From positions 1 through 64,000 of IMG/VR virus record IMGVR_UViG_3300005758_000037: DNA of 64,000 nucleotides; one strand, written 5' to 3'. The notes under the pieces are model-generated. The model did not search any database. It saw only the letters and a list, made by a program, of their open reading frames with translations, and was not told the origin of the DNA. This document shows positions 45,276 to 52,162 of this stretch, in pieces. Positions within the stretch are counted from its first letter, which is position 1, and each line of letters opens with the position of its first letter. Source of the DNA: a virus. Both the position numbers and the translations under genes were made by a program.

Positions 45276-45358
45276 TGGTGTGTATTACGGGATTCGAACC
45301 CGCATCTCAAGGTCATTAGCCCTGCGTCATGATGCCCTAACATTTAGACCAAATACAC
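45276..45358 (-). tRNA. non-canonical tRNA-like gene 1 (isotype unresolved; possible AAT anticodon)
   Basis: Sense strand has a perfect 7-bp acceptor GTGTATT/AATACAC, T-arm GCGGG-TTCGAAT-CCCGT and A + CCA. The D/anticodon region is about 6-7 nt too long. Candidate arm: CAGGG-CTAATGA-CCTTG. Confidence 0.5.
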
Positions 45359-45391
45359 GTTGTTCAATATACTGAAGTGTACCACTGAAAT

Positions 45392-45465
45392 TGGTGGATA
45401 GTAGCGGAGTCGAACCGCTGACAAGGTTATTCACCTCCTGTTAGCCATTTACACAGTCACTACCC
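45392..45465 (-). tRNA. non-canonical tRNA-like gene 2 (G3-U70 acceptor, AGGAGGTGA in place of anticodon arm)
   Basis: Sense strand GGGTAGT-GA-CTGT-GTAAATGGCTA-ACAG-GAGGTGAATAACCTTGTC-AGCGG-TTCGACT-CCGCT-ACTATCC-A-CCA. The acceptor, D and T arms are canonical. The anticodon arm is reduced to a 3-4 bp stem, or a 5-bp stem with an 11-nt loop. Confidence 0.5.
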
Positions 45466-45906
45466 AATATACTTCAAGATACTACCACGGCATTTTCTGC
45501 TGTGTTTCAAGCAACATTACCATGTCTACCCATTGTGCATGTAGTATCTTGAAGTATATCACCAGTCCCTAAACTGGATCAATACTGTCTTGTTACATCC
45601 GGGCGACGACCCTTTGGCCTTTGAACTCCGCAGTGTACCACGCCATCAGCACATCTGTTTTTCCAATCCATTCCGCTACGCAGTTTGGGTTTGACGGGGC
45701 TTACACCCGCCTCGCTTGAAGTGTGCCGCTAACTCTAGGGATGTGAGCAACAGGCATAAGCGGGATTACTTATAGGTGCTGGTTACGTTCTCCAGCTTGA
45801 TATTTCGTCATCAACGTAGCAAATACGCTATTCTAAGTACCTTTCGGTTGCCAGCTACGGCTCTTAGTGAAGAATAGCATCACCGTTCCCATCCCGAATG
45901 GGTTCT
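45466..45906 (-). ncRNA. candidate structured stable RNA(s) embedded in tRNA island
   Basis: No ORF of 60 aa or more in any frame between 45344 and 46071. Visibly more G+C-rich than its surroundings. Multiple helices, including ACC-GAAA-GGT (GNRA loop), an 8-bp stem GCTATTCT/AGAATAGC and a 19-bp perfect inverted repeat. Flanked by tRNA genes on the same strand. Confidence 0.4.
45467..45559. repeat. 19-bp perfect inverted repeat with 55-nt spacer
   Basis: atatacttcaagatactac (45467-45485) and gtagtatcttgaagtatat (45541-45559). Confidence 0.9.
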
Positions 45907-46066: not shown

Positions 46067-46076
46067 AATACTTGGA

Positions 46077-46247
46077 TTATACCTCAGAATCTTCTTTCTT
46101 GTCAACCTCTCTCAAAATATTTTCTTTGATGTTTAGTCGAGCAATTAAATTCAGATCACTCTTTGGCATGCTCATGCTAGAACGTAGTATACCATGTTCA
46201 TCCCATTGTTGCAAAGTTTTATATTCATCGTTGTATTTATACAACAT
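46077..46247 (-). CDS. hypothetical protein (56 aa)
   Basis: ATG at 46247, two nt after the upstream stop. Last ORF before the tRNA island. Confidence 0.5.
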   Translation of the reverse strand: MLYKYNDEYKTLQQWDEHGILRSSMSMPKSDLNLIARLNIKENILREVDKKEDSEV

Positions 46248-50665: not shown

Positions 50666-51143
50666 TAGTTTTCAACACACTAGCAATGGTTTCACTCGTT
50701 TTACCTAATGCTCTACCAATTTTTGCATTAGACCACCCCTGATTTCGCAATAACAGAACTACTTCAACATAATCAGAATAATTTTCTTTTCCTGTCAAAC
50801 CCATTCTTACAGCATGTTGAGCATTACCTTTATGAGTTGTCCATTCCAAATTGGATATTGCGTTATTATCTCTAGTACCATCTAGATGATTGACAAGCAA
50901 AGATTCACACCCTTCTTGATAATTAAAGCACATCATTATTAATCTGTGAATTCTATGTAGAGTACCAACGCCATTTTCATCATATAAGGTGACGTATTTG
51001 TAACCATTACCATCTGTCCGATGTTTTAAGGTCTTACCTTTCACAGTACGCCACCCATTACTACATCGAACTAATTTATCGAATGAGGTAATAGTACCAT
51101 CACGATCAATCTTGTATTGTCCATTGTACAAATATACAAACAT
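50610..51143 (-). CDS. HNH homing endonuclease (HNH_3-type) with C-terminal HTH
   Basis: ...LHRIHRLIMMCF...LLVNHLDGTRDNNAISNLEWTTHKGNAQHA core and C-terminal QGWSNAKIGRALGKTSETIASVL. Overlaps the primase-helicase start. Confidence 0.8.
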   Translation of the reverse strand: MFVYLYNGQYKIDRDGTITSFDKLVRCSNGWRTVKGKTLKHRTDGNGYKYVTLYDENGVGTLHRIHRLIMMCFNYQEGCESLLVNHLDGTRDNNAISNLEWTTHKGNAQHAVRMGLTGKENYSDYVEVVLLLRNQGWSNAKIGRALGKTSETIASVLKTNGVHKSQKGRIGGKFRKT

Positions 51144-52162
51144 TACTCTCCTGTTTTAAGTAGCCATTTATTTGAAATAGCTTTGAAGCTCCGATCATGA
51201 ACACTTTCTGACTTAAACACGATACCTTCACGTTCAGAACCATTCAAACGTGACTTACCTTCAGCTTCACTGAGGATGCTCTGAATGCTACTACCGACTA
51301 GGGTAATACCTTCAGCTAGAATTGGTATGTGATTCAGACCAAGACGTTCACAAGCCGCTTTAAGCTGTGAAGGCAAAATATATTCACCTGTCCTAGTATT
51401 GTACATGTCGTAAACGTAGAAGTCAAGTACAACTTTATACTGATTTCCTTGGATACCTTCACCAATCATTTCACCTTGAATAGCCATTCCCTTCATGTTG
51501 TTTCGACGCATAATACCTTCGATATCATACTTTTTGGCAGTCTTCCAGAAACTATTGTTTTCATCTTCTTTCAGATCAAGGTTGCGTGAACACACATGGA
51601 ACTGATCTTCGTCATCAAGATAGAAGGTACAAGACGAACCATCAAGTTTTTCTGTAACAGACCAAGTATCTTCCATGAACTTATCGAACTGCTTACTGAG
51701 GTTTTGAATGCGCTCCTGATCAGTTTTTGGTACTAGTGCAGGGAAATTACCACGCACTTGACCAGCAAGCTGTGCAGGAATCGGACGTTCCCACTTTTGC
51801 ACATTCAATGGTACAGATACATCTAGGTCTTCAAATAGAAGACTTTCAATATTCTTACAAGTTGGCTCAAGAGGTAGCAATAGACCTTGTGAGATTTGAC
51901 CACGTAGTTTTACTGTACGCAGACGTTCGCCTTTAACACCATTGTATTCACGAGGTTCAGTACCTTTAGTTAGAAATGGTGCTAGTTCGTTTGGAACCCA
52001 AGAATCGATTTCTAGGTACACCGCAAGCGAATTTACTTCAAATTCATTTTTCTTTACTACAACTTTCCAACCACCAACTGTTGCTACTTCAATTTGATCT
52101 GCACCTTCAATGGGATCGATAGCATCGATTTTACGAATTGTTGCCATTGCACGTTCTGACAT
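51143..52162 (-). CDS. RNA ligase (DRB0094/Rnl5-like, N-terminal OB domain)
   Basis: N-terminal ATIRKIDAIDPIEGADQIEVATVGGWKVVVKKNEF...VYLEIDSWVP and adenylyltransferase motif I TEKLDGSS. Confidence 0.7.
   Translation of the reverse strand: MSERAMATIRKIDAIDPIEGADQIEVATVGGWKVVVKKNEFEVNSLAVYLEIDSWVPNELAPFLTKGTEPREYNGVKGERLRTVKLRGQISQGLLLPLEPTCKNIESLLFEDLDVSVPLNVQKWERPIPAQLAGQVRGNFPALVPKTDQERIQNLSKQFDKFMEDTWSVTEKLDGSSCTFYLDDEDQFHVCSRNLDLKEDENNSFWKTAKKYDIEGIMRRNNMKGMAIQGEMIGEGIQGNQYKVVLDFYVYDMYNTRTGEYILPSQLKAACERLGLNHIPILAEGITLVGSSIQSILSEAEGKSRLNGSEREGIVFKSESVHDRSFKAISNKWLLKTGE

What the first reader, a model, noticed from the sequence alone, without database searches (positions are those of the whole stretch)
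45392..45465. tRNA-like gene with alanine identity pair (G3-U70) and a perfect 9-nt Shine-Dalgarno sequence where the anticodon arm should be
The sense (minus) strand reads GGGTAGT GA CTGT GTAAATGGCTA ACAG GAGGTGAATAACCTTGTC AGCGG TTCGACT CCGCT ACTATCC A CCA. The acceptor stem, D-arm (with GG in the loop), T-arm, A73 and encoded CCA are all canonical. The third acceptor pair is G-T, that is G3-U70, the major determinant for alanyl-tRNA synthetase. Only 18 nt lie between the D and T arms. They cannot form a normal 5-bp/7-nt anticodon arm; the options are AGG-TGAATAA-CCT or ACAGG-[11 nt]-CTTGT. They contain AGGAGGTGA, the exact complement of the 16S rRNA 3' tail. A chargeable tRNA-shaped RNA that displays an SD sequence instead of an anticodon could interact with the 30S anti-SD, act as a decoy for tRNA-targeting nucleases, or be a degenerate tRNA. 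tRNA-like gene 1 has a clearly related central segment (CAGG-G-CTAATGA-CCTTG versus CAGG-AGGTGAATAA-CCTTG), so the two are paralogues rather than random decay products.
Basis: partly seen in the sequence, partly recalled or inferred. Interest (0 to 1): 0.7.

Follow-up and report, generated by a model that had tools for sequence, protein, structure and literature searches.

The report
Orphan crippled alanine-type tRNA-like gene
A freshwater phage carries a one-off tRNA-shaped gene that keeps the alanine-type top half of a tRNA but has a stunted anticodon arm. It is most likely a non-decoding leftover of tRNA-cassette shuffling, not a device that displays a ribosome-binding site.

Summary
The sequence is as described: 74 nt on the minus strand with a 7-bp acceptor stem (G3·U70), A73, encoded CCA, a canonical T arm, a D-like arm, and only 18 nt where about 22 belong. 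AGGAGGTGA occurs once in the window. No standard tool calls it: ARAGORN finds nothing and Rfam tRNA gives 23.3 bits against a 29-bit threshold.

The 18 nt fold best as a 5-bp stem with a 5-nt loop (GAGGU-GAAUA-ACCUU). In that fold seven of the nine SD-like bases are paired, so the motif is buried, not displayed.

The 3' third resembles phage tRNA-Ala genes. E. coli tRNA-Ala itself contains AGGAGGT.

The element is an orphan. Seventeen close relatives of this phage have the same tRNA-Leu/tRNA-Arg/structured-RNA/DUF7275 locus but lack it. Pattern scans of IMG/VR, JGI metagenomes and GTDB genomes, and a BLAST of GenBank phages, found no homologue of its 5' half or centre. Conservation of the nonamer therefore cannot be tested.

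It lies in a cassette-shuffling hotspot, downstream of a consensus σ70 promoter.

Best reading: a recently acquired, tRNA-Ala-derived, non-decoding tRNA-like gene, probably processed and possibly alanylated. A dedicated function is unproven.

The parts
45392..45465 (-). tRNA-like gene (74 nt including the encoded CCA)
   Evidence: Sequence read. Rfam tRNA 23.3 bits, below the 29-bit threshold, aligned end to end. Not called by ARAGORN.
45459..45465 (-). Acceptor stem, 5' strand GGGUAGU (carries G3)
   Evidence: Pairs 7/7 with 45396-45402. The third pair is G·U.
45396..45402 (-). Acceptor stem, 3' strand ACUAUCC (carries U70)
   Evidence: Together with the T arm it resembles phage tRNA-Ala genes.
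45438..45456 (-). D-like arm: stem CUGU/ACAG with the 11-nt loop GUAAAUGGCUA
   Evidence: GG is present in the loop, but positions 8 and 14 are G/G instead of U/A.
45423..45437 (-). Third arm, replacing the anticodon arm: GAGGU-GAAUA-ACCUU (5 bp, 5-nt loop). Rfam reads it instead as a 3-bp AGG/CCU stem with a 7-nt loop UGAAUAA.
   Evidence: Constrained minimum-free-energy fold, -23.1 kcal/mol. Rfam alignment.
45431..45439 (-). SD-like nonamer AGGAGGUGA. It spans the end of the D stem, the 5' strand of the third arm and two loop bases.
   Evidence: Unique in the window, 0.20 expected. Duplex -15.2 kcal/mol. Opening cost 7.9 kcal/mol.
45403..45419 (-). T arm: AGCGG-UUCGACU-CCGCU
   Evidence: 26/29 identity (variable loop, T arm and acceptor 3' strand) to cyanophage tRNA-Ala genes, E 0.2.
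45392..45395 (-). Discriminator A73 and encoded CCA
45344..45424 (-). Mechanical 26-codon ORF starting at a TTG 6 nt after the nonamer. It runs through the T arm and spacer into tRNA-like gene 1.
   Evidence: It has no homologue and overlaps structured RNA, so I consider it incidental.
45467..45559 (-). Long hairpin 1 nt upstream of the element: perfect 19-bp arms (45541-45559 and 45467-45485) with a 55-nt interior
   Evidence: Self-matches and fold. Hairpins at the same place, with different arm sequences, occur in DC31, L036, L004, L007 and L012.
45363..45384 (-). Repeated promoter-like motif UGGUACACUUCAGUAUAUUGAA in the 33-nt spacer. A related CUUGAAGUAUAUU abuts the 5' end of the element.
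   Evidence: In relatives the same motif directly precedes the DUF7275 gene. It is duplicated around the L011 insertion.
45276..45358 (-). tRNA-like gene 1, the neighbouring second insertion: anticodon loop CUAAUGA (AAU), 8 extra nt between the D arm and the anticodon stem
   Evidence: Rfam tRNA 51 bits. ARAGORN calls it only at lowered thresholds. Absent from the same relatives.
46076..46105 (-). Consensus σ70 promoter TTGACA-18-TATAAT upstream of tRNA-Leu. It is the likely promoter of the whole tRNA/RNA/DUF7275 unit.
   Evidence: 12/12 match. No minus-strand terminator-like site lies between it and the DUF7275 gene.
45553..45582 (-). Second promoter-like site, TTGATC-18-TATACT with TG, inside the 5' arm of the hairpin
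   Evidence: This is a consensus match only.

Best explanation
The element is a lineage-specific gene derived from an alanine-type tRNA. It sits on a recently acquired cassette in the hypervariable leader between the phage's tRNA-Leu/tRNA-Arg genes and its DUF7275 gene.

Its top half is intact: acceptor stem with G3·U70, A73, CCA, T arm, and the D/T-loop elbow. Its anticodon arm has collapsed to a 5-bp stem with a 5-nt loop, so it cannot decode.

Inferred steps, not shown:
- It is co-transcribed from the consensus promoter at 46105-46076.
- RNase P and 3' trimming release it, because they recognise the acceptor/T-arm half.
- AlaRS may charge it, because G3·U70 minihelices are AlaRS substrates (established knowledge: Hou & Schimmel 1988; Francklyn & Schimmel 1989).

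It has no demonstrable role of its own. It is best seen as a by-product of tRNA-cassette shuffling at repeated promoter/stem-loop motifs. The SD-like nonamer is a by-product of the purine-rich strand of the stem. Comparable AGGAGGU strings occur in genuine tRNA-Ala.
For: Structure:
- The Rfam tRNA model aligns it end to end but below threshold, with two anticodon-stem pairs missing.
- The best cloverleaf has a 5-bp/5-nt third arm.
- G8/G14 replace U8/A14.

Alanine ancestry:
- The only database similarity is the variable loop, T arm and acceptor 3' strand matching phage tRNA-Ala genes.
- E. coli tRNA-Ala contains GCAGGAGGTCTGCGG.

Orphan status:
- Seventeen relatives whose flanking protein is 84-97% identical lack the hairpin, this element and gene 1. 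These are L003, L009, L010, L031-L035 and L057-L065, from many samples.
- Nothing was found in IMG/VR, JGI metagenomes, GTDB genomes or GenBank phages.

Hotspot:
- L011 has a different insertion at the same point, flanked by a duplicated motif and holding two broken tRNA-like units.
- Relatives swap tRNA genes and HNH genes in the same locus.

Expression context: consensus promoter and no intervening terminator.

SD motif: it is buried.
Against: - All four stems are perfectly paired and CCA is kept. That is more order than expected of an old pseudogene.
- Reaching the present arm from a normal one needs about three indels (loop -2, position 26 -1, variable loop -1). Yet the result is a neat 5-bp helix capped by a GNRNA-type pentaloop. 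This could indicate selection for a stable non-decoding shape.
- The nonamer is the strongest anti-SD complement in the window and is statistically unexpected.
- A covariation-supported family of non-decoding, mostly G3·U70 tRNA-like RNAs exists in Bacteroidales phages. Functional RNAs of this general design therefore do occur in phages.
- With a single sequence, selection cannot be measured either way.
Confidence: 0.55

Rival explanations
1. It is a functional, non-decoding tRNA mimic that uses only the top half. Possible roles: an RNase P punctuation signal separating the upstream structured RNA from the downstream mRNA, as with mascRNA or mitochondrial t-elements; a decoy for tRNA-targeting host nucleases; or an alanine-accepting RNA used off the decoding pathway, in the manner of the tmRNA tRNA-like domain.
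For: - Acceptor, T arm and elbow are intact, with perfect stems and encoded CCA.
- The third arm is closed by a stable-looking pentaloop.
- It sits inside a transcription unit between a conserved structured RNA and an ORF.
- The phage encodes an RNA ligase, which suggests exposure to tRNA-cleaving defences.
- A separate phage family of tRNA-like RNAs with G3·U70 in 21 of 26 members and no anticodon loop is supported by covariation.
Against: - Seventeen close relatives do without it.
- No homologue is known, so there is no evidence of selection.
- The tertiary-core positions are disturbed (G8, G14, no position 26).
- Kinship to the Bacteroidales family is not established. The family model scores the element 36.3 bits, but it scores a genuine tRNA-Ala 38.2 bits.
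- The tmRNA models and ARAGORN's tmRNA mode are negative.
Confidence: 0.28
2. The SD-like nonamer is the functional part. Either the RNA binds the anti-SD of 30S subunits as a sponge or recruiter, or the nonamer is the ribosome-binding site of the 26-codon TTG ORF at 45344-45424.
For: - It is a perfect 9-nt complement of the 16S tail and unique in the window.
- Its duplex energy of -15.2 kcal/mol exceeds every ORF start examined.
- A TTG lies 6 nt downstream.
- Net binding after opening would still be about -7 kcal/mol.
Against: - Seven of the nine bases are paired in every low-energy fold, and the probability of all nine being open is about 2.5e-6.
- The ORF runs through the T arm and acceptor strand into the next tRNA-like gene and has no homologue.
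- AGGAGGU occurs natively in tRNA-Ala.
- The possible relative in L011 has CAAGAGGC instead.
- No conservation data exist.
Confidence: 0.05
3. It is a working decoder with an unusual anticodon arm: a 3-bp stem with the 7-nt loop UGAAUAA, anticodon AAU like gene 1.
For: - The Rfam alignment gives a 7-nt loop with AAU in the anticodon position.
- The neighbouring gene 1 also has AAU.
- The central segments of the two genes are similar.
Against: - Position 33 is G, not the universal U.
- The stem is 3 bp, and the 5-bp/5-nt alternative is 4.3 kcal/mol better.
- The score is below the tRNA threshold, and ARAGORN is negative.
- G3·U70 would charge alanine onto an Ile anticodon.
Confidence: 0.03

Closest known systems
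Canonical tRNA-Ala (Rfam RF00005), including phage-encoded tRNA-Ala genes
   Same: - 7-bp acceptor stem with G3·U70, G2-C71, A73 and CCA.
- T arm AGCGG-UUCGACU-CCGCU and variable loop UGUC, nearly identical to cyanophage tRNA-Ala.
- GG in the D loop.
- A purine-rich AGGAGGU-type string, also present in E. coli tRNA-Ala.
   Different: - No 5-bp/7-nt anticodon arm and no U33.
- No position 26 and a 3-nt variable loop.
- G8/G14 instead of U8/A14.
- 23.3 bits against a 29-bit threshold.
- Not called by ARAGORN.
tRNA pseudogenes and fragments in prokaryotic and phage genomes (for example van der Gulik et al. 2023, PMC9897764)
   Same: A sub-threshold tRNA-like sequence in a region of recombination and mobile DNA. 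It is lineage-specific and absent from close relatives.
   Different: The fragments described there are partial genes made by integration events or CRISPR acquisition. This one is full length, with both acceptor strands, perfect stems and CCA. Only its anticodon arm is remodelled.
tmRNA tRNA-like domain, including the reduced mitochondrial tmRNA of jakobids (own knowledge)
   Same: Alanine identity (G3·U70, A73), a GGUUCGACUCC-type T loop, and no anticodon.
   Different: - It is contiguous at 74 nt and has a D stem.
- It has no P2 helix, pseudoknots or tag reading frame.
- ARAGORN's tmRNA mode is negative.
- Rfam tmRNA families reach 12.8 bits or less.
'GGCUGAAAC' tRNA-like family found here in Bacteroidales phage and prophage contigs (apparently undescribed)
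   Same: - Ala-type acceptor (GGGCGGU/ACCGUCC, G3·U70 in 21 of 26), A73 and the same T loop.
- D loop UGGCUGAAAC, against UGGCUAAC in the element.
- A purine-rich GAGG(U)G in a third arm that is not an anticodon arm.
   Different: - The family's third arm is 22-27 nt and carries an 8-nt palindrome (GGUGCACC or GGCGCGCC) that the element lacks.
- Most members have no encoded CCA.
- Host and context differ: ORF-less DNA upstream of recombination genes.
- The family model does not separate the element (36.3 bits) from a true tRNA-Ala (38.2 bits).
YrlA / bacterial Y RNA tRNA-like modules (Chen et al. 2014, PMC4201824)
   Same: A non-decoding tRNA mimic with T arm, D arm and acceptor-like stem. Members are found in phages.
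   Different: - YrlA is circularly permuted (T arm, closed acceptor hairpin, D arm) and attached to a Ro60-binding stem.
- The element has free acceptor ends.
- There is no YrlA hit at E<=10.
- None of the ORFs I scanned against Pfam matched a Ro60/TROVE protein. That covers about half of the window's large ORFs. The structural-gene block and ORFs under 250 aa outside 41.9-46.7 kb were not scanned.
mascRNA and mitochondrial t-elements (tRNA-like RNase P processing signals; own knowledge)
   Same: A tRNA-like fold with a degenerate anticodon arm, embedded in a longer transcript next to another RNA or ORF.
   Different: No evidence of processing here. The Rfam mascRNA model does not hit the element.

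Membership tests
tRNA (Rfam RF00005 / ARAGORN) | Score at or above the curated threshold; called by a standard tRNA finder | tested here: not met
   23.3 bits against a 29-bit gathering score. Missed at gathering threshold and in the 3-kb E<=10 scan. ARAGORN default finds none. At -ps80 it gives only a forced tRNA-Pro fold with a shifted, mismatched acceptor. tRNAscan-SE was not available.
tRNA (Rfam RF00005 / ARAGORN) | 7-bp acceptor stem, 5-bp T stem with a UUCRANY loop, discriminator and CCA | tested here: met
tRNA (Rfam RF00005 / ARAGORN) | 5-bp anticodon stem with a 7-nt loop and U33 | tested here: not met
   The arm is either 5 bp with a 5-nt loop or 3 bp with a 7-nt loop that has G at position 33.
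tRNA (Rfam RF00005 / ARAGORN) | Core tertiary positions U8, A14, position 26 and a 4-5-nt variable loop | tested here: not met
   G8 and G14. No nucleotide lies between the D stem and the third arm in the best fold, and the variable loop is 3 nt.
Alanine identity (AlaRS substrate) | G3·U70 in a 7-bp acceptor helix, plus A73 and G2-C71 | tested here: met
   Read directly from the sequence. Actual charging cannot be tested with these tools.
tmRNA | A tRNA-like domain whose two halves are separated by a P2 helix, pseudoknots and a tag reading frame; detected by ARAGORN or the Rfam tmRNA models | tested here: not met
   No tmRNA call. cyano_tmRNA reaches 12.8 bits and tmRNA_permuted 6.9 bits, on the T arm only.
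Functional Shine-Dalgarno site | Complementarity to the 16S 3' tail, with a start codon 5-10 nt downstream | tested here: met
   9/9 complementarity, -15.2 kcal/mol. TTG lies 6 nt after the nonamer. The host 16S was not examined. The E. coli tail was used, on the established conservation of the CCUCC core.
Functional Shine-Dalgarno site | Accessible (single-stranded) and followed by a conserved coding ORF | tested here: not met
   Opening cost is 7.9 kcal/mol and the probability of all nine bases being open is 2.5e-6. The 26-codon ORF overlaps two structured RNAs, and no homologous locus exists.
'GGCUGAAAC' phage tRNA-like family (defined here) | A family-specific third arm (stem plus GAGG plus an 8-nt palindrome), and a model score above that of ordinary tRNAs | tested here: inconclusive
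   The element scores 36.3 bits, best in the window. A genuine tRNA-Ala scores 38.2 and another tRNA 34.1. The palindrome is absent from the element.
YrlA (Y RNA-like) | Permuted order (T arm, closed acceptor hairpin, D arm), a Ro60-binding stem, and a Ro60 gene nearby | tested here: not met
   The order is the normal tRNA order. No YrlA hit. No TROVE-domain match among the ORFs scanned against Pfam, which is about half of the window's large ORFs.

The most novel reading that the evidence does not exclude
The element is an expressed, alanine-chargeable tRNA mimic whose remodelled third arm carries a super-consensus Shine-Dalgarno sequence. On partial unfolding, or while still part of the precursor, it engages the anti-SD of 30S subunits and so ties a tRNA-shaped, possibly aminoacylated RNA to the small subunit. 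It may belong to a wider, undescribed class of phage Ala-type tRNA-like RNAs with GAGG-rich third arms, such as the Bacteroidales-phage family seen here.
Probability: 0.05. Interest if true: 0.8.

Novelty: new member of a known kind. Interest (0 to 1): 0.3.

Why it matters
If it is only a relic, it is a clean snapshot of how phage tRNA cassettes are gained and degraded at repeated promoter/stem-loop motifs. It is also a caution that SD-like strings arise naturally in tRNA-Ala-type sequences.

If the top half is used, it would add to the few known non-decoding tRNA mimics in phages. Possible uses are RNase P punctuation, a decoy for tRNA-directed defences, or an alanine acceptor. In vitro charging and RNase P assays could test this directly.

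The by-products may be more valuable than the element itself. They are a covariation-supported structured RNA conserved in this whole phage group, and a tRNA-like family in Bacteroidales phages that matches no Rfam model.

Tried and rejected
1. ARAGORN default and Rfam at gathering threshold do not call it. The Rfam alignment confirms that two anticodon-stem pairs are missing. Low-threshold ARAGORN folds are forced.

2. tmRNA, one-piece or permuted: rejected.

3. Searches for homologues all came back empty:
- Megablast and blastn against GenBank phages.
- Three exact or gapped patterns in IMG/VR. The single hit, L008, was a chance match in coding DNA.
- A structured pattern in JGI metagenomes.
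- A pattern in GTDB genomes.
- blastn-short against all fetched loci.
- Gene 1 also has no exact relative in IMG/VR.

4. Flank-based search. Twenty-two metagenome loci, five IMG/VR loci and fifteen loci fetched by exact protein look-up were inspected. None carries the element.

5. L011 unit A as a homologue: not established. It ranks only 10th of 124 tRNAs in similarity.

6. Membership in the 'GGCUGAAAC' family: the apparent 36.3-bit hit collapsed under the control with genuine tRNA-Ala.

7. Y-RNA reading of the neighbouring hairpins: there is no YrlA hit in the window, only a 22.6-bit match at E 1.9 in L011, and none of the ORFs scanned against Pfam matched Ro60.

8. Literature searches for anticodon-less phage tRNA-like RNAs found nothing specific.

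Full report
WHAT IS THERE

It has:
- a 7-bp acceptor stem GGGUAGU/ACUAUCC whose third pair is G·U;
- GA at positions 8-9;
- a 4-bp stem CUGU/ACAG around an 11-nt loop with GG;
- 18 further nucleotides;
- a canonical T arm AGCGG-UUCGACU-CCGCU;
- A73 and an encoded CCA.

AGGAGGTGA occurs once on both strands of the 64-kb window, where 0.20 copies are expected. It is a stronger complement to the 16S 3' tail (-15.2 kcal/mol) than the region upstream of any of 41 long ORFs, whose median is -5.6 and best -12.8.

Two details need correcting. Positions 8 and 14 are G and G rather than the nearly universal U8/A14, so the D region is not fully canonical. With the acceptor and T arms fixed, the optimum is a 5-bp stem GAGGU/ACCUU with a 5-nt loop GAAUA and a 3-nt variable loop.

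WHAT THE STANDARD TOOLS SAY

ARAGORN finds nine tRNAs in the window but not this element, and finds no tmRNA. Rfam at gathering threshold finds the neighbouring 'tRNA-like gene 1' (51 bits) but not this one.

On a 111-nt slice the Rfam tRNA model aligns the element end to end at 23.3 bits. That is below the 29-bit threshold, and two pairs of the anticodon stem are missing. The tmRNA models reach at most 12.8 bits, on the T arm alone. ARAGORN with lowered thresholds gives only a forced fold that starts 7 nt upstream and has mismatches in the acceptor.

tRNAscan-SE was not available.

THE SD-LIKE NONAMER

In the best cloverleaf the nonamer occupies the last two bases of the D stem, the whole 5' strand of the third arm and two loop bases.

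In the thermodynamic ensemble the per-base probabilities of being unpaired are 0.23, 0.66, 0.38, 0.24, 0.03, 0.14, 0.15, 1.0 and 1.0. Opening all nine bases costs 7.9 kcal/mol, so the probability that all are open is about 2.5e-6. The figures are the same in a 319-nt context. The motif is buried rather than displayed. Net binding to the anti-SD (about -7 kcal/mol) is not thermodynamically excluded.

An AGGAGGT string is not exotic in this setting. E. coli tRNA-Ala(UGC), verified at 100% identity in 5,408 genomes, reads GCAGGAGGTCTGCGG across the 3' strand of its anticodon stem and its variable loop.

A TTG lies 6 nt after the nonamer and opens a 26-codon ORF. That ORF runs through the T arm, the acceptor strand and the spacer into the next tRNA-like gene. 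I regard it as incidental.

ANCESTRY

The only database similarity is in the 3' third. The variable loop UGUC, the T arm and the acceptor 3' strand match tRNA-Ala genes of cyanophages and Brevundimonas phages (26/29 identity, E 0.2). Phage tRNA-Ala genes are among the element's most similar tRNAs overall, though that comparison set was biased by my search patterns. G3·U70 is thus most simply inherited from a tRNA-Ala ancestor.

The central segments align CAGGAGGTGAATAACCTTG with CAGG-GCT-AATGACCTTG, with a local score of 20 against 14 or less for the other nine tRNAs. The shuffle p is 0.016, or 0.12 after allowing for the best of ten comparisons.

CONTEXT

The window belongs to a phage related to Limnohabitans phage DC31 and Curvibacter phage P26059A. 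Its DNA polymerase is 75% and 70% identical to theirs.

A perfect σ70 consensus promoter, TTGACA-18-TATAAT, lies at 46105-46076 on the minus strand. Downstream of it, in order, are:
- tRNA-Leu and tRNA-Arg;
- about 440 nt without ORFs;
- a 19-bp-armed hairpin;
- the element;
- a 33-nt spacer;
- gene 1;
- the DUF7275 gene.

No terminator-like site on that strand lies in between. The element is therefore probably transcribed as part of this unit. The phage also encodes an RNA ligase.

ORPHAN STATUS

Seventeen loci from many samples keep the tRNAs and the ORF-less RNA-like stretch, and their DUF7275 protein is 84-97% identical to the window's. After the conserved hairpin CCGG-UUUAGGGA-CCGG they run straight into '...ctaaagtgcatcaaagtatggtacacttcagtatgttgaaaggaaagtcATG'. 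They lack the long hairpin, the element and gene 1.

More distant relatives (DC31, L036, L004, L007, L012) have a long hairpin at that place but no tRNA-like gene after it. L011 has a different insertion at the same point. It is flanked by a duplicated 40-nt promoter-like motif and contains two tRNA-like units without anticodon arms.

The slot is therefore a recombination hotspot. In the window it holds two separate insertions, each next to a copy of the motif CUU(C/GA)AGUAU(A/G)UU.

The following searches found no homologue of the element's 5' half or centre:
- pattern scans of IMG/VR;
- a pattern scan of JGI metagenomes;
- a pattern scan of one genome per GTDB species;
- BLAST against GenBank phages;
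- blastn-short against all fetched loci.

The one possible relative is L011 unit A. It has CAAGAGGC at that place, but its homology is not established: it ranks 10th of 124 tRNAs in similarity.

A LEAD THAT DID NOT HOLD

A looser pattern turned up a family of 81-86-nt tRNA-like RNAs in Bacteroidales phages and prophages. It gave 93 IMG/VR stretches and hits in Muribaculaceae, Bacteroides and Parabacteroides genomes. Its features are:
- an Ala-type acceptor (G3·U70 in 21 of 26, A-U in 4, G-C in 1), A73 and the same T loop;
- a D loop UGGCUGAAAC;
- a third arm that is not an anticodon arm and carries a conserved GAGG and an 8-nt palindrome;
- seven pairs with compensatory changes.

It has no Rfam match and no ARAGORN call.

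A covariance model of this family scored the element at 36.3 bits, the best hit in the window and well above the true tRNAs at 8-24 bits. As a control, a genuine tRNA-Ala with a similar acceptor scored 38.2 bits and another tRNA 34.1 bits. The score therefore reflects the shared Ala-type acceptor and T arm, which my patterns had partly selected for. Membership is not shown.

The family does show that non-decoding, mostly G3·U70 tRNA-like RNAs can be maintained in phages. That keeps a functional reading of the element alive.

INTERPRETATION

Most likely (about 0.55), the element is a recently acquired tRNA-Ala derivative. Its top half still looks like a substrate for RNase P, 3' trimming and possibly AlaRS, all of which recognise the acceptor/T-arm half (established knowledge). 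It cannot decode and has no dedicated role. The nonamer is then a by-product of the purine-rich stem strand.

The main rival (about 0.28) is a functional top-half mimic: a processing signal, a decoy or an alanine acceptor. In its favour are the perfect stems, the retained CCA and the tidy pentaloop arm, which would need about three indels to derive from a normal arm.

A function that depends on the SD motif (about 0.05) and an unusual decoder (about 0.03) are unlikely, for the reasons given above.

The remaining probability covers readings I have not thought of.

VERDICT

I classify it as a new member of a known kind, namely aberrant or pseudo-tRNA genes in phage tRNA clusters. Interest is modest.

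Noticed in passing
window 45562-45742 (minus strand), within the ORF-less stretch 45466-45906: A conserved structured RNA lies upstream of the DUF7275 gene in every relative examined. Compensatory changes occur in at least three helices. An invariant UCCCUAGA is complementary to an invariant UUUAGGGA about 200 nt downstream. That UUUAGGGA is itself the loop of a hairpin whose 4-bp stem covaries in four versions (CCAG/CUGG, CUGG/CCAG, GCAG/CUGC, CCGG/CCGG), which suggests a pseudoknot. There is no Rfam match at E<=10. Variable modules are inserted between the conserved blocks.
   Followed up: partly
window 45276-45358 (minus strand): tRNA-like gene 1 scores 51 bits with Rfam tRNA but is missed by default ARAGORN. 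It has 8 extra nt between the D arm (GUCU/GGGC) and the anticodon stem. Its anticodon loop is CUAAUGA, giving anticodon AAU, which is unusual for bacteria. It has an encoded CCA. It is inserted exactly between the promoter-like motif and the SD of the DUF7275 gene, and is absent from the 17 close relatives.
   Followed up: partly
window 45467-45485 and 45541-45559: A perfect 19-bp inverted repeat with a 55-nt interior ends 1 nt before the tRNA-like gene. Its 5' arm contains a promoter-like TTGATC-18-TATACT. Hairpins at the same place, with different arm sequences and variable interiors, occur in DC31, L036, L004, L007 and L012. This resembles the promoter/stem-loop recombination motifs of T4-type phages (own knowledge).
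   Followed up: partly
L011 about 2793-2945 (Logan ERR12320369): At the same slot in a related phage there are two tandem tRNA-like units, each lacking an anticodon arm. The 3' acceptor strand of unit 1 (ACUGUCC) pairs with the 5' strand of unit 2 (GGGCGGU, giving G·U at position 3:70). The outer ends (CCCGUGG and CCACaauGGG) also pair. This is either a permuted, YrlA-like arrangement or a pair of decayed tandem tRNA-Ala copies. Rfam tRNA gives 27.5 bits for unit 1, and YrlA gives 22.6 bits at E 1.9.
   Followed up: partly
L016-L030 and L066-L148 (IMG/VR); L150, L152, L157, L158, L162, L164, L174-L176, L184, L189, L191, L194, L195, L198 (Bacteroidales genomes): An apparently undescribed family of 81-86-nt tRNA-like RNAs. 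Features: acceptor GGGCGGU/ACCGUCC with G3·U70 in 21 of 26 members, A73, D loop UGGCUGAAAC, and a third arm carrying a conserved GAGG plus a covarying 8-nt palindrome (GGUGCACC or GGCGCGCC). Most members have no CCA. The family lies in about 800 nt of ORF-less DNA upstream of genes that look like recombination genes from their sequence alone (no domain search run). It has no ARAGORN call and no Rfam hit.
   Followed up: partly
L001 4473-4548 (Limnohabitans phage DC31): An unannotated tRNA-Arg(UCU)-like gene. It has a very short D region and a 20-nt stretch between the anticodon and T arms. Rfam tRNA gives 44 bits, but ARAGORN does not call it and the GenBank record does not annotate it.
   Followed up: no
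L002 9834-9932 (Curvibacter phage P26059A): A 99-nt structure that ARAGORN calls tRNA-Pyl(CUA). It has a roughly 16-bp terminal stem and a T arm. Rfam tRNA gives only 24.7 bits. Several further long-stem hairpins follow it in a 990-nt unannotated gap upstream of the DUF7275 homologue.
   Followed up: no
L055 9917-9987 (IMG/VR 3300020185_003648): A canonical-looking tRNA with anticodon CCG (Arg) but the acceptor stem GGGUAGU/ACUAUCC, that is G3·U70 with A73. This combination would be expected to invite alanine mischarging.
   Followed up: no
window 51143-52162 (minus strand): The phage encodes an RNA ligase (PF09414 plus the PHA02142 OB fold) next to an ATP-dependent DNA ligase. This is consistent with tRNA or RNA repair during infection.
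   Followed up: no
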